Below the pieces are notes generated by a model. It searched no databases. It saw nothing but the letters and a program-made list of their open reading frames with translations, and had not been told where the DNA came from. From a virus: a stretch of 64,000 bases of DNA. The stretch is taken from positions 41,060-105,059 of IMG/VR virus record IMGVR_UViG_3300027797_000016; one strand, given 5' to 3'. A program made the translations under genes and the position numbers. Of the stretch, positions 3,535 to 46,363 are shown piece after piece; within the stretch, counting starts at the first letter, position 1, and every line of letters begins with the position of its first letter.

Positions 3535-3997
3535 AAGGAATCCATTCAGCAAAACTAAAGATATACGCAAGTCCCCATTCTAATGTATGAGGTGGTAGTT
3601 CGTCAATATGATTAAACGCAAGTCGTCTTGCTTCCAAGATGCGTTCTTTACCTACCGCAAGTAGATTTGCTTTAGAACCTTTGAGAAACTCATTATAATC
3701 TGCCTGATTATTCTGTTTCGCACCAGAGATATACAATCGTCTCATTTCAGTAAAAAGTTCTGCGGTTTCGGGGGCAAATGTAATCACTTCTTCCCCCAAA
3801 GGGATTTCCATAGTTTTCATCGCACTCATTGAAAATTTCATCGCATCTCTGGTTTCTTCTACTGATAAGGCATCCTCATCCTCATCACGAAACTTATGTT
3901 GTATTATACCGTTACTGCACTCAACTAATCTTAAAAGAGCAATCTTGTCCTTCTCAGAGTCAGGTAGTGCTTGAAATCTTGCGTCCCAGTCAATCAT
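3527..3997 (-). CDS. Hypothetical protein (start revised to MIDWDARF)
   Basis: ATGA overlap with the endonuclease stop. Confidence 0.8.
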   Translation of the reverse strand: MIDWDARFQALPDSEKDKIALLRLVECSNGIIQHKFRDEDEDALSVEETRDAMKFSMSAMKTMEIPLGEEVITFAPETAELFTEMRRLYISGAKQNNQADYNEFLKGSKANLLAVGKERILEARRLAFNHIDELPPHTLEWGLAYIFSFAEWIPYD

Positions 3998-4665
3998 TTT
4001 CTTCCAAGTCTCCAACCATCACCGGGACATTCTACCATCCTTTTACAATTTCCGCAACCATCATTCCACCACTTTTTACCTTTTCGTGTCTCACTCATTT
4101 TTCTTCTGGTTTCTTTGGAAAGGATTTTACCTTTTCGTGTCTCACTCATTTTTCTTCTGGTTTCTTCTGAAACAGGTCTGCCTTTAAGACCTTCAATTAT
4201 TTTATCTATATGCTCTTTTGAGAGAGTTTTACCAATTTGTGACTCACTCATTTTTCTTCTGGTTTCTTCCGAATGAATTTTACCATAGTTATGATTTTTT
4301 TCCCCTCTCCTTGCTTCACTCATTTTTTTTCTAGTTTCTTCTGAAGGGGTTCTTTCTCTCATTTTTTTTCTGGTTTCTTCACTAAAAACATAACCAGAAG
4401 CACCATCACCACCATCTGTAAGGTTGTGAAGAATACCAGTTCCCAAATCTTTCCTACCAAACACAGCAATCATATAGATTTCGTGTCTAAATGCTTCTTC
4501 TTCTGTTAAGTTTTGTTTGAGGAATATAATTCTTGATTTATCTTTGGGTGGGTTATTTCGTCTGTTTGTAGAATAAATCCTATCTCCAGTACCTTTACCA
4601 ATATAATAAGGTGTCTTATCTTCACGCAAATATGCGTAAGTGTAAAACCTATTAGGATTTACCAT
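3994..4665 (-). CDS. Free-standing GIY-YIG-type (Seg-like) homing endonuclease with NUMOD3 repeats
   Basis: FYTYAYLR..TPYYIGKG, E and N.TDGG motifs, repeated SEETRRKMSE; ATG downstream of late promoter. Confidence 0.85.
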   Translation of the reverse strand: MVNPNRFYTYAYLREDKTPYYIGKGTGDRIYSTNRRNNPPKDKSRIIFLKQNLTEEEAFRHEIYMIAVFGRKDLGTGILHNLTDGGDGASGYVFSEETRKKMRERTPSEETRKKMSEARRGEKNHNYGKIHSEETRRKMSESQIGKTLSKEHIDKIIEGLKGRPVSEETRRKMSETRKGKILSKETRRKMSETRKGKKWWNDGCGNCKRMVECPGDGWRLGRK

Positions 4666-4695
4666 AGTTCTGCTTCTAAATTGTGTTCGCAATAC

Positions 4696-4703
4696 TATTT
4701 ATA
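4696..4703 (-). promoter_or_regulatory. T4-type late promoter TATAAATA for the GIY-YIG gene
   Basis: Exact consensus, about 30 nt upstream of the ATG. Confidence 0.8.
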
Positions 4704-4704
4704 C

Positions 4705-4727
4705 AAGAAAAGGTGCCCGAAGACACC
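4705..4727 (-). terminator. Intrinsic terminator
   Basis: GGTGTC-TTCG-GGCACC followed by TTTTCTT. Confidence 0.8.
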
Positions 4728-4763
4728 CTTCCCACTCTTATGGATGCGAACACATTAGAGCAC
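4705..4763 (-). ncRNA. Putative antisense small RNA 1 (to the GIY-YIG mRNA leader)
   Basis: ATAAATA at 4767-4773, segment complementary to leader 4671-4691, terminator; homologous module at 43540-43596. Confidence 0.55.
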
Positions 4764-4793
4764 CAGTATTTATCTGTTTAGCACAACTCCACC

Positions 4794-4958
4794 CTATAAC
4801 AAGCAAGAAAGCATGATTTGATGTGCTAATTTGTCCCGCAAAAAATTAATTCTTTCTTCATCATACTGCTGAAAGTTTCCTTTCTTCTCCACTTTCTTAT
4901 AATAATGTAGAGCATTTATAATTATACCATAATCTTCTATTGTAATATCAATTTTCAT
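4794..4958 (-). CDS. Hypothetical protein, 54 aa (MKIDITIEDYG...)
   Basis: Translated by hand. Confidence 0.7.
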   Translation of the reverse strand: MKIDITIEDYGIIINALHYYKKVEKKGNFQQYDEERINFLRDKLAHQIMLSCLL

Positions 4959-34925: not shown

Positions 34926-36887
34926 TTATACAATTGCTTCAATTTTTGCAAAAGCATTAGTACTACTATTACCACCAAGTTGAGTATTGATCACATTAAC
35001 ACTCCCATCAGTATATCCACTACCTCCTCCACCACCAGACCCATATTCAACCGCCGCATTTCCTCCATAAGCACCAGAACCACCACCACCTTGTTTTCCA
35101 CTACCATCACCACCATTATTGCGATAACCAAGACCTTGCTTATATCCTCTTTGTATTACTGCTGTTTGTGATGTTATAGATCCGGTTTTTGCTGCTCTCC
35201 ATTGCTGCTGTCCAACATCTTGACAGGGAGAGAACCCAATATCTCTATAATATTTCCCAATTGTACAACCAGAAACCTGACCACCAGAAGACCCAGAAGC
35301 AAGTGATCCACTTCCAGTAGGCAGTGCTCCATTATCAACTCTTCTACCTCCAGCACCACTACGTCTTCCCTGACCAAACTCACCACCTACACCAATACCA
35401 CCACCATCACCACCACTATGGGCAGTTCCAGAACCTCCACCACCACCACATACGGCAATTAATCTTGCTTTTTCATAAAGATATGCAGCACCTCCACCAC
35501 CATTAGAACCTCCTGTTGAAGCAGTTGCAGCACCCAATTTAAATACATATTCTGTATTTTGTCTAATCACATATTCAAAGACTGATAGACCACCTTGACC
35601 TCCCCTTGGTCCTCTTGATGCTCCTGCAGATGCTGCTAAAGTAATTCTAACTCTTATATCTTTTTCTGATGGATATATGACCAAAGAACGATCTAAATTG
35701 TTAAGATCTGCAGTAAAAGTTGTAGGATTATTAAAAAGATTTATTGATCCAGAATCAATAAAACCTCCACTGTCATTTATAGACTCAAAGTTTATAATTT
35801 GTCTTGCCAATACAGTACTAAAATTAACAGTATTTGTAAAAATGGGTGAGTTGCAAGCAATAGGATGAGTTAATCTTGCTCTTACTGTATTTGTTGTGGT
35901 TCCTGGAGACCAATCTATAGAGATTGTTGTAGTACCACTAACAGTTATATGTGTAACCGTATTATTTTGAAGTATTGGTTGAGAAGAACTGGGAGTTGCC
36001 TGAATAGTGAAATTTCTACAGAAGTTATAATAGTCTCCAGCAAATAGTCCTTCAATAGCAAATCTTAATCTATATTGTTGAGAACTAATTCTCACAAATT
36101 CTGTAATCATTAATGTAGGTTGAGAGTTGCCACCAGCTCCAATGCGTTCAAATGTTGGAATGCTAGCTGTGTCAACTGGAACACTGAAATTAATTAAATA
36201 GAATCTTGTTGAACCAGAAATAATAGGAACTACACTAGTAATAATATTAGGTAATGATACTGAAAGTGAAGTAGTACCAGAACCAATAACCGTGGTACTA
36301 TCACTTAAGTCATTACCATTCAACTGCCATCGATAAGAAATATTACCTTGTGTTGTATCAGTTAATGCTCCTAAAGTAGTAAAAATTGTAGATCTTGTTG
36401 GTGCTGCAGTTTGATCTGTTGGTTGTGTAACTATGCTTATGAATGGAAAAACTGTAAGAGTTGCTGAATTGGAGTTTAGAACCTCATTAACTGCATTTCC
36501 TGTGGATCTTCCAGTACCTACAGTCACTGCAGATCCTACTGGTTGTGAGTAAGCAGAAGGTACATAATCAACATCAACATAAAATCCTAGTCCATTTTCA
36601 GTAGGACTTTTTGCGTTTGTAATCGTTAATGTAGTTGTTCCAGACCCTGTGATTGTTGCCCCCCGAAAAGTTCCATCAGTAAGTGGTCCAAATCCTTTAG
36701 CATACCATCTATAGGATAAAATTCCAGTATTTGATGCTGGATTTGGTGGGTCTTGTGTAGGAAAGAATGCAGTTGCGATTCCTATAAATGTTGCAGACCC
36801 ACCATCACATACACTTACTGATTGTGGTTGTGTTGTAAAAGATAGAATGGGACCATTAAGATCCAGAGTCGTTTGTTTTCCAATCAT
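34926..36887 (-). CDS. Virion protein with Ig-like repeats and glycine-rich C-terminal domain
   Basis: TTQP...YRW motifs; GGGG runs. Confidence 0.8.
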   Translation of the reverse strand: MIGKQTTLDLNGPILSFTTQPQSVSVCDGGSATFIGIATAFFPTQDPPNPASNTGILSYRWYAKGFGPLTDGTFRGATITGSGTTTLTITNAKSPTENGLGFYVDVDYVPSAYSQPVGSAVTVGTGRSTGNAVNEVLNSNSATLTVFPFISIVTQPTDQTAAPTRSTIFTTLGALTDTTQGNISYRWQLNGNDLSDSTTVIGSGTTSLSVSLPNIITSVVPIISGSTRFYLINFSVPVDTASIPTFERIGAGGNSQPTLMITEFVRISSQQYRLRFAIEGLFAGDYYNFCRNFTIQATPSSSQPILQNNTVTHITVSGTTTISIDWSPGTTTNTVRARLTHPIACNSPIFTNTVNFSTVLARQIINFESINDSGGFIDSGSINLFNNPTTFTADLNNLDRSLVIYPSEKDIRVRITLAASAGASRGPRGGQGGLSVFEYVIRQNTEYVFKLGAATASTGGSNGGGGAAYLYEKARLIAVCGGGGGSGTAHSGGDGGGIGVGGEFGQGRRSGAGGRRVDNGALPTGSGSLASGSSGGQVSGCTIGKYYRDIGFSPCQDVGQQQWRAAKTGSITSQTAVIQRGYKQGLGYRNNGGDGSGKQGGGGSGAYGGNAAVEYGSGGGGGSGYTDGSVNVINTQLGGNSSTNAFAKIEAIV

Positions 36888-42710: not shown

Positions 42711-43502
42711 TTATTTATCGTCCTTATTTCTTGGTCTTCTTGTTGCTTTCCATCCTTTATAATTATCTTGCTTTCCATTTACGACTTCATATACAAACTT
42801 AGAAAATAAATTATTTTCTTTGCAAAATTTTAAAGCATTAATAGTTTTAAATATTTCACCATCAGGAGAAATAAAAGTATAAACATACTTACATTTTGAA
42901 TCACTTAACTTTTCTTTAGTTTCAATAGTGTGATTTTTATTATAAAAAGGATTTTTTTCTCCCGTTATATCTCTTCCACCATTTTCCCAAAATTTTTTAT
43001 GCGACACACTTATTTTATTTTTATGCTCCTCTTCTTTTTTAATTCCTTTCATTTTTTTGGAAAATTTTTCAATATGTTCTTTTGATTTTGGTGGTTTTGA
43101 TTTACCCTTTAAAGATTTTGATATATTTTCTCTTCTTTCTATACTAAATTTAATTCCTGTTTTTAATTCACTCATTCTTTTTTTACAATTTTCATATAAA
43201 ACTGAGGTATATCTTACTTGAGTTTTATTTTTTGCACTCATACTACAGAATGCCTGATTCATTTTAATAGTTTTATAATGCTTTAATCCATACCTTTTGA
43301 TACAAATCTTTTCCAATAATGCGTGAGCAATATAATGTTCTCTTGCGGCCAAATAGACAATTCTTTTATTATTTCCATATATGCTTTTAGGAAATGTATG
43401 ATGTCCCTCAACATACACTCCTTTCTCCTTTGCTTTCTTTTTAGTGTAATTTCTTTGTTCTGCTTTTCTTATGAGGTTACAATAAACCTTTAGATAATTC
43501 AT
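42711..43502 (-). CDS. Free-standing HNH (Mob-like) homing endonuclease with NUMOD domains
   Basis: EGHHTFPKS...NKRIVYLAAREHYIAHALL; GEKNPFY. Confidence 0.85.
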   Translation of the reverse strand: MNYLKVYCNLIRKAEQRNYTKKKAKEKGVYVEGHHTFPKSIYGNNKRIVYLAAREHYIAHALLEKICIKRYGLKHYKTIKMNQAFCSMSAKNKTQVRYTSVLYENCKKRMSELKTGIKFSIERRENISKSLKGKSKPPKSKEHIEKFSKKMKGIKKEEEHKNKISVSHKKFWENGGRDITGEKNPFYNKNHTIETKEKLSDSKCKYVYTFISPDGEIFKTINALKFCKENNLFSKFVYEVVNGKQDNYKGWKATRRPRNKDDK

Positions 43503-43529
43503 ACTGCTCTTAAAACTGACTAGCAATAT

Positions 43530-43537
43530 TATTTATA
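43530..43537 (-). promoter_or_regulatory. T4-type late promoter TATAAATA for the HNH gene
   Basis: Exact consensus. Confidence 0.8.
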
Positions 43538-43539
43538 CT

Positions 43540-43566
43540 AAAAAGGAGGAGATTTTAGTCTCCTCC
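43540..43566 (-). terminator. Intrinsic terminator
   Basis: GGAGGAGA-CTAAAA-TCTCCTCC-TTTTT. Confidence 0.85.
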
Positions 43567-43596
43567 AACCTCAAAGATGCTAGTCAGTTAAGGCAT
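43540..43596 (-). ncRNA. Putative antisense small RNA 2 (to the HNH mRNA leader)
   Basis: ATAAATA at 43600-43606; complementary to leader 43505-43525; homologous to sRNA 1. Confidence 0.55.
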
Positions 43597-43598
43597 TT

Positions 43599-44231
43599 TT
43601 ATTTATTACTCTTCCACTTATGATCTTTCCATTTTAGTCTTTTTTCTAATTCTTTATCAAAGATTAGCATATATCTATGTTTCCTGGTTCTCTCTCTCCA
43701 CTCGCCTTTAAGACTCCTTGTAGGACCTCTTGAGTGCTTTATATAGGATCCATCAGGTTGTTCAATCCAGAAGTCACTCTTAGGATCGGTCGTCCCAAAA
43801 TACCGGAAATTAGTTGCACGATAAATGACTCCTGTATGGTGATTAGCATCAGCATAGCTAAGAATACAACGAACATTTGCATCTTTACGAAACCTCTTGA
43901 TACAACGACTTACGAACCAGGATGTGATATTATATTCTTCTTTTTGGACATCTGGATGAACACAAAGTCTTGAGAGTTCATAGAGACCTTCCTGTTCATT
44001 TCTTTGTAGTCCAAATGCACCTACGGCAAGCTCTGGAACTGGGAAAGAAGTAAAAACGCAAGCAGCAATAGGGCTGCCAATTCTAAGGACATCTGTGAAA
44101 GATTTTCTATAGAGTGCATAGTTATAGTGACTTTTAAAAGTTTTACTCTCATCCTTAAGATAATGATATGTTAAAAGGAGTGGTTCAAGTTCTTTTTTTG
44201 TCACTCTTTCTATATAGAAGTCACTTTTCAT
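43599..44231 (-). CDS. Mom-like (GNAT-fold) DNA-modification protein
   Basis: HYL...ELSRL...SYAD...H.G.IY.ATNF.Y.G motifs of the Mu Mom family. Confidence 0.75.
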   Translation of the reverse strand: MKSDFYIERVTKKELEPLLLTYHYLKDESKTFKSHYNYALYRKSFTDVLRIGSPIAACVFTSFPVPELAVGAFGLQRNEQEGLYELSRLCVHPDVQKEEYNITSWFVSRCIKRFRKDANVRCILSYADANHHTGVIYRATNFRYFGTTDPKSDFWIEQPDGSYIKHSRGPTRSLKGEWRERTRKHRYMLIFDKELEKRLKWKDHKWKSNK

Positions 44232-44249: not shown

Positions 44250-44783
44250 TTATTTACTAACACGATTATATGATTTTCCATAAAATGGATTATTTTCTCC
44301 AGTAATATCTCTTCCACAATCTTTCCAATATTTTTTGGCAGCTTTTCTCATTTTATTTTTAGTTTCCTCACTATGCGGTTTTCTTTTTCTATTCTTAGAA
44401 GAAAGTTTCATTTTTTCTATTGTTTCTGGTGAATGTTTTTTACCATAAAATGGATTTTTACTGCCAGGTTTTGAAATTTTTTTCTTAGTATCTTCATTAT
44501 GCGAATATCCAGATATTCCATCACCACCGTTAGTCATATTACGAAGAATACCAGTTCTCAAATCTTTTCTACCAAAAATAGAAATCATATAAACTTCGTG
44601 TTTATTTGCCTCTTCTTCTGTAATATTTTTCTTTAAGAAGATAATTTTATTATTGTCTTTTGGTTTTAAGTTTGTTTTATTTTGTCTAATATGACTTTTA
44701 TAAACTCTCCTTCCTCTACCTTTACCAATATAATAGGGAGTTCCGTCTTTACGCAAATATGCGTAAGTGTAATATTCGTTCAT
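44250..44783 (-). CDS. Free-standing GIY-YIG-type homing endonuclease with NUMOD3 repeats
   Basis: YYTYAYLRKDGTPYYIGKG; paralog of 3994..4665; late promoter at about 44807-44814. Confidence 0.85.
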   Translation of the reverse strand: MNEYYTYAYLRKDGTPYYIGKGRGRRVYKSHIRQNKTNLKPKDNNKIIFLKKNITEEEANKHEVYMISIFGRKDLRTGILRNMTNGGDGISGYSHNEDTKKKISKPGSKNPFYGKKHSPETIEKMKLSSKNRKRKPHSEETKNKMRKAAKKYWKDCGRDITGENNPFYGKSYNRVSK

Positions 44784-44883
44784 TGTGTCTTGGTGTTGAC
44801 TATTAATATTTATAACATAAAAGTGGGACTTATACAACTATATCCACCAAGACACAAGTTGCTGCCCATTTTACTTAATTATG

Positions 44884-45599: not shown

Positions 45600-46328
45600 T
45601 TATTTATTGATCCATTTGCGAATAGAATTATCACTAACACCATATTTTTTACCTACAGCAAGATAAGAACTTTCTTTTACTTCTTGTAATAATTGTTCTT
45701 TAGAAGGTCTTTCAACTTTTCTTTGAGATTTTGAATAACAACTATTACAAAGACCCGTTTTGCAGTTTGTTTTTAATTCAACCTCACACGAAGAACATTT
45801 ATGAATTTTTTTGGTTCGTATTATTTGAATTTTATTTTTTATTGTTTGTGAGTTTTTATTTTTCTTATTTTTACCACGATATGTTGGTGTTTTAGCGTGG
45901 CAGTTGGGACATAATATTTTTAGATTTTCTAACATATTGTTATAATGGTCTCCATCAATATGATCTAATTCTAAAGGTATTGGTTCTCCTAACCATTCAC
46001 TCAACTCACAACATTCGCATCTATGATTCTTTAATCCCTCTATAATTAATCTTTTTCGCAATTTGTTAGAATTGTACTCATAATTCTTAACAAGTATTTC
46101 GCTTAATGGAGTTGTATTAAACTTGTGAGTTTTCCCCTTTAGATGTCCTTGACCTGTAAAATGTGAAGTGTCTATTCCATAAAGTTTTTCAAATTTTTTA
46201 AATACTCTATAGTTTCCACCTCTTGGAGATAATCCAAGTTTTGTAAGTGCTTGTGCTATAGAAAAACTTTCTTCTACTGCTTTTTTAAAGTCTTCTATAG
46301 AATATGAATGTTTCATACTGATAAACAT
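45600..46328 (-). CDS. Free-standing HNH endonuclease with zinc ribbons (start at 46328 or 46316)
   Basis: CECC...LELDHIDGD..NN..ENLKILCPNCH; C-terminal HTH. Confidence 0.9.
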   Translation of the reverse strand: MFISMKHSYSIEDFKKAVEESFSIAQALTKLGLSPRGGNYRVFKKFEKLYGIDTSHFTGQGHLKGKTHKFNTTPLSEILVKNYEYNSNKLRKRLIIEGLKNHRCECCELSEWLGEPIPLELDHIDGDHYNNMLENLKILCPNCHAKTPTYRGKNKKNKNSQTIKNKIQIIRTKKIHKCSSCEVELKTNCKTGLCNSCYSKSQRKVERPSKEQLLQEVKESSYLAVGKKYGVSDNSIRKWINK

Positions 46329-46363
46329 ATTGTATAGTTATTTATATAAGTTTATCAGTTCAA

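What the first reader, a model, noticed from the sequence alone, without database searches (positions are those of the whole stretch)
4663..4773. Covarying 'addressed' antisense-RNA module shared by unrelated GIY-YIG and HNH nuclease genes (copy 1; partner at 43500-43606)
Seen on the minus strand. Copy 1: ATAAATA-CTGG-TGC TCT AA TGTGTTC GCATC..[terminator]..TATAAATA-GT-ATTGC GAACACA AT TT AGA A GCAG..ATG (GIY-YIG). Copy 2: ATAAATA-AAAA-TGC CTT AA CTGACTA GCATC..[terminator]..TATAAATA-AT-ATTGC TAGTCAG TT TT AAG A GCAG-T-ATG (HNH). Promoter-to-arm spacing and duplex geometry are identical (10 bp, 2-nt bulge, 5 bp, 1-nt bulge, 3 bp). The two copies differ at 6 of the 7 core positions and 2 further positions, always with compensatory changes. 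Established: T4 homing endonucleases such as I-TevI use a late promoter plus an RBS-occluding hairpin in cis. Inference: here the upstream arm has its own late-promoter motif and is closed by an intrinsic terminator, so it could be a discrete ~55-60-nt RNA that silences the nuclease mRNA in trans. The variable 7-nt address would give orthogonality, like a portable type I toxin-antitoxin controller reused across nuclease families. In copy 1 the upstream promoter sits among early genes and serves no late gene, which suggests it belongs to the module.
Basis: partly seen in the sequence, partly recalled or inferred. Interest (0 to 1): 0.9.

Follow-up and report, generated by a model that had tools for sequence, protein, structure and literature searches.

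The report
Homing-nuclease control cassette, candidate small RNA
Two selfish DNA-cutting genes of this T4-like cyanophage each carry the same portable ~110-base control region that hides the gene's ribosome site by RNA pairing until a late promoter bypasses it, a known phage T4 trick. Here the hiding segment also has its own conserved late-promoter motif, hairpin and terminator, so it is probably made as a separate ~55-base RNA, which nobody has yet observed.

Summary
The 105-kb phage contig holds four copies. 114 of 129 non-redundant upstream regions of related GIY-YIG/HNH genes in IMG/VR carry the module, as do cultured phages S-SRM01 and B3/B23.

The core is already known: an RBS-sequestering long-range helix with TATAAATA in its loop. 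This is described for T4 I-TevI/segB and Aeh1 mobE, and for cyanophage-like metagenomic endonucleases by Dassa et al. 2009. The helix covaries strongly: 13 of 13 pairs show compensatory changes, and 91% of cells pair against 64% in shuffles.

The upstream unit is the undescribed part:
- An invariant TAAATA sits at fixed spacing from the arm and has the same initiation context as the inner promoter.
- A covarying stem-loop starts at the predicted +1, and an intrinsic terminator follows.
- HEG-less alleles show that this upstream motif is absent from the target site and arrives with the cassette.

A discrete 53-55-nt RNA is therefore plausible, but no RNA evidence could be obtained. The "orthogonal address" and toxin-antitoxin readings are not supported: co-resident cassettes can cross-pair or be identical.

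This scan has found the same module before in other genomes, with the same verdict. I class it as a new variant of a known kind.

The parts
4767..4773 (-). P1 of copy 1: upstream late-promoter-type motif (G)ATAAATA. The predicted +1 is at 4761.
   Evidence: TAAATA is invariant in all 111 aligned modules. The 6th nt after the motif is a purine in 105/107. The motif is absent from the empty site.
4734..4762 (-). 5' arm (4745-4762), which doubles as the stem-loop SL1 (4734-4761) with the variable core in its loop
   Evidence: Long-range covariation. SL1 covariation.
4705..4731 (-). Intrinsic-terminator-like hairpin (GC stem, UUCG loop) with a U run
   Evidence: RNAfold predicts it. The simple scan did not flag it. 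It is the commonest terminator type in the family.
4696..4703 (-). P2 of copy 1: consensus late promoter TATAAATA inside the long-range hairpin loop. The predicted +1 is at 4690.
   Evidence: P2 is TATAAATA in 108/114 modules. Position 6 is a purine in 107/107.
4663..4691 (-). mRNA leader: 3' arm (4671-4691) covering the Shine-Dalgarno-like AGAAG, then the ATG at 4663-4665
3994..4665 (-). GIY-YIG-type (Seg-like) homing endonuclease gene with NUMOD3 repeats, 223 aa
43600..43606 (-). P1 of copy 2: (A)ATAAATA, which also holds the stop codon of the Mom-like gene. The predicted +1 is at 43594.
43568..43595 (-). 5' arm (43578-43595), which doubles as stem-loop SL1 (43568-43594)
43540..43566 (-). 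Intrinsic terminator: 8-bp stem, 6-nt loop, five U
43530..43537 (-). P2 of copy 2: TATAAATA. The predicted +1 is at 43524.
43500..43525 (-). mRNA leader: 3' arm (43505-43525) covering AAGAG, then the ATG at 43500-43502
42711..43502 (-). HNH-type homing endonuclease gene with a NUMOD3 repeat, 263 aa. Its stop codon lies inside the resident late promoter of the next gene (42712-42718).

Best explanation
Each copy is a portable expression-control cassette that travels with free-standing homing endonuclease genes (HEGs) of freshwater/estuarine-type T4-like cyanophages.

**Step 1, shown by sequence and covariation; mechanism by analogy with T4.** In transcripts that enter from upstream, the 5' arm pairs with the leader. 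This is about 18 bp and about -24 kcal/mol, and it buries the ribosome-binding region. The terminator in the loop stops much of that transcription. The consensus late promoter P2 in the loop starts an mRNA at the first base of the 3' arm. This mRNA lacks the mask and is translatable only late.

**Step 2, inferred from conservation.** The mask segment is itself a late transcription unit.
- P1 is a NATAAATA or CTAAATA motif.
- It would start an RNA 6 nt downstream, exactly at the base of the covarying stem-loop SL1, which shows the variable core in its loop.
- The terminator would end this RNA after 53-55 nt.

**Step 3, inferred and untested.** This RNA is made at the same time as the P2 mRNA and is complementary to its whole leader. 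It would pair in trans (net -13 to -19 kcal/mol) and damp or delay nuclease translation.

**My odds**
- cis mask: 0.9
- P1 active and a short RNA made: 0.7
- short RNA represses in trans: 0.5

The sequence variety of the arms is best read as neutral compensatory drift plus cassette exchange, not as selected orthogonality.
For: **Architecture and folds**
-.

**Family size**
- 4 copies in the genome.
- 114 of 129 non-redundant HEG upstream regions carry the module.
- 49 of 49 profile hits in 16 contigs or phages are complete modules followed by a nuclease-type ORF.

**Long-range helix**
- Cognate duplex median is -24.0 kcal/mol against -9.5 for swapped arms.
- 13 of 13 pairs show double changes; 91% of cells pair against 64% in shuffles, 0/500.

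**P1 as a promoter**
- TAAATA is invariant in 111 aligned modules. The base before it is only A (85) or C (28), apart from one G in a spurious detection (L145) that was left out of the alignment. The -13 base is free.
- Both forms are documented late-promoter variants: A(-13) in T4 and (a/g)C at -13/-12 in Aeh1 (PMC2988020).
- In this genome ATAAATA is 27:2 and CTAAATA 10:1 on the coding versus the other strand. 20 of the 27 lie 45 nt or less before an ORF start.
- P1 and P2 share the context TAAATA-NTAAT-purine-C.

**P1 is cargo**
- HEG-less alleles have the two flanking genes overlapping at ATGA, with no TAAATA.
- In L211 a different cassette at the same site begins 3 nt or less before its P1.
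- At the copy 2 site the resident promoter of the downstream gene survives separately at the 3' end of the HNH gene.

**SL1**
- All 111 P1-to-P2 segments fold into exactly two hairpins, with SL1 starting 5-7 nt after the motif and 53 distinct stems.
- Cognate MFE is -6.3 against -3.2 kcal/mol for swapped strands.
- 85.7% of cells pair against 70.8% in shuffles, 0/500.

**Precedent and thermodynamics**
- Trans pairing is thermodynamically favourable.
- Precedent for step 1: PMC2988022 and PMC2677866.
Against: - No transcript data exist.
- Late-promoter activity of these motifs in cyanophages is itself known only in silico (PMC2988020).
- P1 departs from the full consensus far more often than P2, so it may be weak.
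- SL1 is modest: median -6.3 kcal/mol and z about -1.9. Its outer three pairs hardly vary in the subset tested, and that subset was chosen because it folds this way.
- The copy 1 terminator has only four U before a C and was not flagged by the simple scan.
- The short unit never occurs without its target gene, so no independent role is visible.
- Making a repressor at the same time as its target has no obvious benefit.
- The well-tested cis mechanism alone explains the arms, the terminator and P2.
Confidence: 0.5

Rival explanations
1. Cis-only translational mask, exactly as in T4 I-TevI/segB and Aeh1 mobE. The 5' arm matters only on read-through transcripts. P1 either makes masked read-through transcripts, which carry downstream genes without translating the nuclease, or yields a short by-product RNA with no function of its own.
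For: The mechanism is experimentally established in T-even phages (PMC2988022). The same hairpin-plus-TATAAATA design was already reported for cyanophage-like GIY-YIG and Vsr-like endonucleases (PMC2677866). Other nuclease genes in this window use hairpins with a nested late promoter but no P1. The short unit is never found without its gene.
Against: This reading does not explain four things. TAAATA is invariant at fixed spacing in over 100 diverged cassettes, although the 4-nt spacer next to it is highly variable. P1 is carried in by the cassette. P1 shares the initiation context of P2. The linker covaries with the 5' strand to form SL1, which the cis helix does not need.
Confidence: 0.3
2. 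P1 acts at the DNA or polymerase level rather than through its RNA. Transcription from P1 stops a few bases before P2. This either occludes P2 (interference) or hands polymerase and clamp over to it, tuning how often P2 fires.
For: The U run ends only 3-8 nt before the P2 box in nearly all modules, so a terminating polymerase would sit over P2. P1 and P2 lie at a narrow distance of 65-74 nt.
Against: This is pure inference. It does not explain why the P1 transcript must be complementary to the leader, nor the SL1 covariation. The tight spacing also follows simply from compact hairpins.
Confidence: 0.08
3. A type I toxin-antitoxin-like addiction module with orthogonal 7-nt addresses, so that each nuclease is silenced only by its own RNA.
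For: The arms differ between most co-resident cassettes: off-diagonal duplexes are mostly -5 to -15 kcal/mol against about -21 to -27 for cognates.
Against: In this genome the copy outside the window (copy A) and copy 2 cross-pair at -20.6 and -18.8 kcal/mol against -21.6 and -24.0 for cognates. Contig G008 holds two cassettes that are identical from the arm to the ATG, and G013 holds two near-identical ones. Random pairs from the pool are equally distinct (swapped median -9.5), so no selection for orthogonality is needed. The "toxins" are 223-263-aa nucleases, and the RNA is co-oriented upstream, not antisense-encoded.
Confidence: 0.05
4. Chance resemblance of two AT-rich intergenic regions.
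For: None beyond the AT-rich composition (36% GC).
Against: Shuffle controls, four genomic copies, over 100 relatives and compensatory changes at every pair.
Confidence: 0.01

Closest known systems
RBS-sequestering hairpins with a nested late promoter at T-even and Aeh1 homing endonuclease genes (I-TevI, I-TevII, I-TevIII, segB, mobE; Edgell, Gibb & Belfort 2010, PMC2988022)
   Same: The controlled gene is a homing endonuclease. A stable helix buries the ribosome-binding site on transcripts from upstream. TATAAATA in the loop starts a late mRNA that lacks the 5' arm. Terminators and promoters for downstream genes are associated with the cassette.
   Different: Those systems have no promoter in front of the 5' arm and no separate stem-loop formed by the arm. 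They are not a sequence-related cassette shared by many nuclease families. Here the arm has P1, SL1 and a terminator, which makes it a potential stand-alone RNA.
Hairpins upstream of GIY-YIG and Vsr-like endonucleases in 'fractured gene' loci of ocean metagenomes (Dassa et al. 2009, PMC2677866)
   Same: The setting is cyanophage-like. [quoted passage not shown] The design is shared by unrelated endonuclease families. This is probably the same cassette family or a sister one.
   Different: That paper reads it as a cis hairpin only. It does not mention a terminator (0 occurrences), and none of the passages retrieved mention an upstream promoter or a local stem-loop. I did not compare the sequences directly.
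c4 antisense RNA of phages P1/P7 (operon c4-icd-ant; PMC8198154; specificity details from my own knowledge of Citron & Schuster 1990)
   Same: The regulatory RNA is encoded on the same strand, upstream of its target. It is complementary to the target's translation-initiation region, and its specificity is set by a few covarying bases.
   Different: c4 is processed from the same transcript as its target and controls an antirepressor for immunity. Here the RNA would have its own promoter and terminator and would control a nuclease. There is no sequence or structural homology, and Rfam gives no match.
Type I toxin-antitoxin systems and short phage antisense RNAs (lambda OOP, P22 sar; review PMC12197685)
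   Same: A short terminated RNA pairs with the RBS region of an mRNA whose product can damage DNA or the cell.
   Different: Those RNAs are transcribed from the opposite strand or divergently, and type I toxins are small peptides. There is no evidence here for differential RNA stability or addiction.
PeSL mobile regulatory cassettes of T4-type phages (Arbiol et al. 2010; recalled from memory, not read here)
   Same: Short repeated promoter-plus-stem-loop cassettes flank accessory genes and promote modular shuffling by recombination.
   Different: PeSLs carry early sigma-70-type promoters and are not complementary to the downstream leader. Here both promoters are of late type.

Membership tests
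T4-type translational mask with nested late promoter | The controlled gene is a homing endonuclease | tested here: met
   NUMOD3 repeats. PHROG homing-endonuclease families 314 and 655. Seg-like and GIY-YIG annotated relatives. The catalytic domains themselves are not detected by Pfam or by PDB sequence search.
T4-type translational mask with nested late promoter | A stable helix includes the Shine-Dalgarno or start region | tested here: met
   MFE folds with z -4.2 and -5.4. 13 of 13 pairs covary, with 91% of cells paired.
T4-type translational mask with nested late promoter | A late promoter lies inside the hairpin, so late transcripts lack the 5' arm | tested here: met
   TATAAATA sits between the arms in both copies and in 108/114 relatives. 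The predicted +1 is the first base of the 3' arm. The start site itself is not mapped.
T4-type translational mask with nested late promoter | Translation is restricted to late infection | not testable with these tools
   This needs infection time courses.
Independently transcribed antisense-type small RNA (c4, OOP or sar kind) | Own promoter | tested here: inconclusive
   The motif is invariant, is cassette-borne, and shares the P2 initiation context. Its activity is untested.
Independently transcribed antisense-type small RNA (c4, OOP or sar kind) | An intrinsic terminator bounds a short transcript | tested here: met
   The copy 1 terminator is predicted by the fold only and is not flagged.
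Independently transcribed antisense-type small RNA (c4, OOP or sar kind) | A conserved self-structure presents the recognition sequence | tested here: met
   SL1 is present in 111/111 modules. Covariation is moderate.
Independently transcribed antisense-type small RNA (c4, OOP or sar kind) | A discrete RNA is observed and represses in trans | not testable with these tools
No transcriptome is known for the phages that carry the module.
Type I toxin-antitoxin system | The toxin is a small, usually membrane-active peptide | tested here: not met
   The products are 223-aa and 263-aa nucleases.
Type I toxin-antitoxin system | The antitoxin RNA is transcribed antisense to, or divergently from, the toxin gene | tested here: not met
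   The RNA unit lies on the same strand, upstream.
Any Rfam 15 family | A match to a curated covariance model | tested here: not met
   The whole window gave only one tRNA at gathering scores. Both modules gave nothing at E up to 1.

The most novel reading that the evidence does not exclude
Every cassette encodes, from its own late promoter, a 53-55-nt two-hairpin RNA that pairs in trans with the leader of its nuclease mRNA. This would be a dedicated, co-oriented riboregulator that travels with homing endonuclease genes of several unrelated families. It would set a threshold on nuclease synthesis. In mixed infections it could also silence matching nuclease genes on a competing genome.
Probability: 0.45. 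Interest if true: 0.75.

Novelty: new variant of a known kind. Interest (0 to 1): 0.55.

Why it matters
How homing endonucleases are kept harmless to their carrier is a long-standing question. So far the known answers in T4-type phages are cis hairpins, autorepression, terminators and RNase E cuts.

If the upstream unit is a real RNA, it would be the first small RNA found to be dedicated to a homing endonuclease. It would also be a mobile promoter-RNA-terminator-promoter cassette that different nuclease families reuse (GIY-YIG, HNH and at least two unannotated families). One contig fragment holds up to nine copies.

It also offers a natural library of over 50 matched arm/leader pairs for riboregulator design, and a cultured phage (S-SRM01) in which to test it.

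If the RNA is not made, the finding reduces to a well-populated cyanophage example of a textbook T4 mechanism.

Tried and rejected
2. **"P1 is the resident late promoter of the target site."** Rejected. Empty alleles of the copy 1 site have overlapping genes and no TAAATA. The resident promoter at the copy 2 site is a separate, downstream copy.
3. **[quoted passage not shown]** Rejected. Only 17 of 105 nuclease genes have TAAATA near their 3' end.
4. **"P1 is conserved only as a stop codon for the upstream gene."** Rejected. The upstream stop lies in the motif in 50 of 98 cases, yet the motif is invariant in the others too.
5. **Orphan short-RNA units without a nuclease gene.** None among 49 hits.
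6. **Selected orthogonality of addresses.** Not supported.
7. **Rfam.** No family matches.
8. **PDB sequence search for the two nucleases.** No hits.
9. **The covariance model R1.** It kept only 5 terminator pairs, because MAFFT does not align SL1 across length classes. It therefore served for detection only. SL1 was tested on an ungapped subset and by swap controls instead.
10. **Cultured model cyanophages with published transcriptomes.** BLAST of a module found only S-SRM01 and B3/B23.

Full report
**Setting.** The window is bases 41060-105059 of a 105-kb IMG/VR contig, 36% GC, estimated 42% complete. Nearly all genes lie on the minus strand. The nearest cultured relative by DNA is the freshwater Synechococcus myovirus S-SRM01, family Kyanoviridae. 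ATAAATA occurs 18 times on the coding strand of the window and twice on the other strand. Most coding-strand sites lie just before gene starts, and many lack a leading T. In the whole contig the counts are 27:2, with 20 of the 27 lying 45 nt or less before an ORF start. CTAAATA is 10:1. The late-promoter motif of this phage is therefore NATAAATA, and probably also CTAAATA. This agrees with the T4 literature: the box spans -13 to -6, A(-13) variants are frequent, and Aeh1 uses (a/g)C at -13/-12 (PMC2988020).

**The observation.**
- Both copies are as described. Reading the minus strand, each has ATAAATA (P1), a 4-nt spacer, an 18-nt 5' arm, a linker, a GC hairpin with a U run, TATAAATA (P2), a 3' arm that covers the Shine-Dalgarno-like purines, and the ATG.
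- The duplex geometry is identical in the two copies, and all sequence differences are compensated.
- The folds are far more stable than shuffles, with z of -4.2 and -5.4.
- The downstream genes share only NUMOD3 repeats and fall into different PHROG homing-endonuclease families.
- The first gene has Seg-like GIY-YIG annotated relatives. The second carries an HH...N...H motif. Neither catalytic domain reaches Pfam or PDB thresholds.

**It is a large family.**
- The contig has four copies, two of them upstream of the window.
- I fetched 160 IMG/VR loci encoding relatives of the two nucleases without selecting on upstream sequence. They gave 129 non-redundant upstream regions.
- 114 of these show the same layout with both TAAATA motifs. 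Seven carry a different cassette without P1. The rest have none or are truncated.
- Cognate arm-leader duplexes have a median of -24.0 kcal/mol against -9.5 for swapped partners.
- On a plain MAFFT alignment of 111 modules, RNAalifold finds 13 long-range pairs, all with compensatory changes. Counting on that structure gives 91.0% of cells paired against 64.1% in shuffles (0/500), 408 double-change cells against 128, and 34-39% when partners are slid.
- S-SRM01 carries six modules, one with the same core as copy 1 in a different context. B3/B23 carry it too.
- Rfam has no matching family.

**What is already known.** The long-range helix with a late promoter in its loop is the established control of T4 I-TevI, I-TevII, I-TevIII and segB and of Aeh1 mobE. 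There the RBS is masked on early and middle transcripts and free on late ones (PMC2988022). Dassa et al. 2009 reported such hairpins upstream of GIY-YIG and Vsr-like endonucleases in cyanophage-like metagenomic loci, with TATAAATA and two mutually complementary conserved motifs (PMC2677866). The core of the finding, including its sharing between nuclease families, is therefore not new.

**What is not explained by the cis model.**
1. *P1 conservation.* TAAATA is invariant in all 111 aligned modules. The neighbouring 4-nt spacer and the upstream flanks vary freely. The base before the motif is only A or C, and the -13 base is free.
2. *Shared initiation context.* P1 and P2 both read TAAATA-NTAAT-purine-C. 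The 6th base, which is the predicted +1 by T4 numbering, is a purine in 105/107 modules for P1 and 107/107 for P2.
3. *SL1.*
   - In all 111 modules the P1-to-P2 segment folds into exactly two hairpins.
   - The first hairpin, SL1, starts 5-7 nt after the motif, has a 5-7-bp stem, and carries the variable core in its loop. There are 53 distinct stems.
   - The linker that forms the 3' strand of SL1 has no role in the long-range helix, yet it covaries with the 5' strand.
   - Cognate MFE is -6.3 against -3.2 kcal/mol after swapping.
   - On an ungapped subset of 32 sequences, 85.7% of cells pair against 70.8% in shuffles (0/500), with three of seven pairs showing double changes.
   - This support is moderate, and the subset was chosen by predicted geometry.
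4. *Size and pairing.* The predicted RNAs are 53-55 nt long. After paying for the opening of SL1, they would still bind the predicted P2 leader with -13 to -19 kcal/mol.

**P1 comes with the cassette.**
- Relatives of the gene downstream of copy 1 include HEG-less alleles. In these the two flanking genes overlap at ATGA, and no TAAATA is present.
- In L211 a different GIY-YIG cassette occupies the same site. Its insert begins 3 nt or less before its P1, whose TAA now ends the upstream gene.
- In L218 the site holds the P1-less cassette type, which shows turnover at one site.
- At the copy 2 site, HEG-less alleles have the Mom-like gene followed by the late promoter and leader of the 1930-aa structural gene. 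In the window that resident promoter survives at the 3' end of the HNH gene and supplies its stop codon, while P1 is an additional copy.
- The first 13 kb of the window contain no ATAAATA other than those of copy 1.
- These results reject the idea that P1 is a leftover host promoter. They also fit the stop-codon pattern: in 50 of 98 cases the upstream ORF ends inside P1.
- Promoter repeats do not bound the cassette in general, since only 17 of 105 have one at the 3' end.

- Orthogonality is not maintained. The copy at contig position 32.3 kb and copy 2 differ by one inserted base and cross-pair at -20.6 and -18.8 kcal/mol, against -21.6 and -24.0 for cognates.
- Contig G008 has nine modules, two of them identical from arm to ATG. 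G013 has a near-identical pair.
- Random pairs are as distinct as co-resident ones, so drift with compensation plus cassette exchange is sufficient.
- The toxin-antitoxin analogy fails on its defining features.
- The short unit never occurs alone: 49 of 49 profile hits are complete modules followed by an ORF. These ORFs are GIY-YIG, HNH, two unannotated families and a few others.

**Verdict.** The cis mask is near certain by analogy and covariation. The upstream unit is very probably functional, and a late promoter is the simplest reading, so a 53-55-nt RNA is likely made. Its trans action is plausible but unshown. Earlier follow-ups of this scan on other genomes reached the same position.

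Noticed in passing
window 44781-44870 (-): The second GIY-YIG gene (ATG 44783) has a different cassette. A 13-nt arm complementary to the leader up to the ATG lies inside a larger GGGC...CCCAC closure followed by a U run, with TATAAATA in between. There is no upstream promoter motif. The same type occurs in L063, L086, L142-L146 and L218.
   Followed up: partly
window 46318-46358 (-): The HNH gene 45600-46328 has a third design. A perfect 9-bp helix encloses TATAAATA and the ATG itself. The predicted late transcript would have only a 4-nt leader.
   Followed up: no
window 42711-42720 (-): The stop codon of the copy 2 HNH gene lies inside the resident late promoter of the 1930-aa structural gene. 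HEG-less relatives have that promoter directly after the Mom-like gene. Embedding a host promoter in this way, as in T4 segG, would disfavour loss of the nuclease gene.
   Followed up: yes
L003:4976-5755 (-) = contig 35475-36254: A 259-aa protein starting MTSQSPRIY..YKITFEEV.YYYYG has no significant Pfam match (one sub-threshold hit only) and no PHROG or NCBIfam match. It repeatedly sits behind the same module in other contigs (L167, L177, L186, L188, L206). It is likely an unannotated homing-endonuclease family. A second such family (YVYYSYEEYGRGYIGKRECKC...) appears in L170, L191, L194 and L203.
   Followed up: partly
window 43599-44231 (-): Mom-family protein (Pfam PF25680, E 1.2e-19) encoded immediately upstream of copy 2. 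Its C-terminus is extended to the TAA of P1 compared with HEG-less relatives.
   Followed up: partly
L007, L016, L017, L051, L057, L102 and others (about 10 nt before P2): Some modules carry an extra degenerate promoter-like copy (TATTATAAAC) between the U run and P2, as if the promoter had been duplicated in tandem.
   Followed up: no
L210-L243, the site between the 54-aa and 162-aa genes (window 4015-4794): One insertion site shows at least four states in related phages: empty, two different P1-type cassettes, and a P1-less cassette. Unrelated inserts of 0.5-1.3 kb occur there as well. This is a hot spot of nuclease-gene turnover.
   Followed up: partly
contig G008 (IMGVR_UViG_3300040856_003054): Nine modules lie in 136 kb of a contig estimated 64% complete, an unusually high load of free-standing nuclease cassettes.
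   Followed up: no
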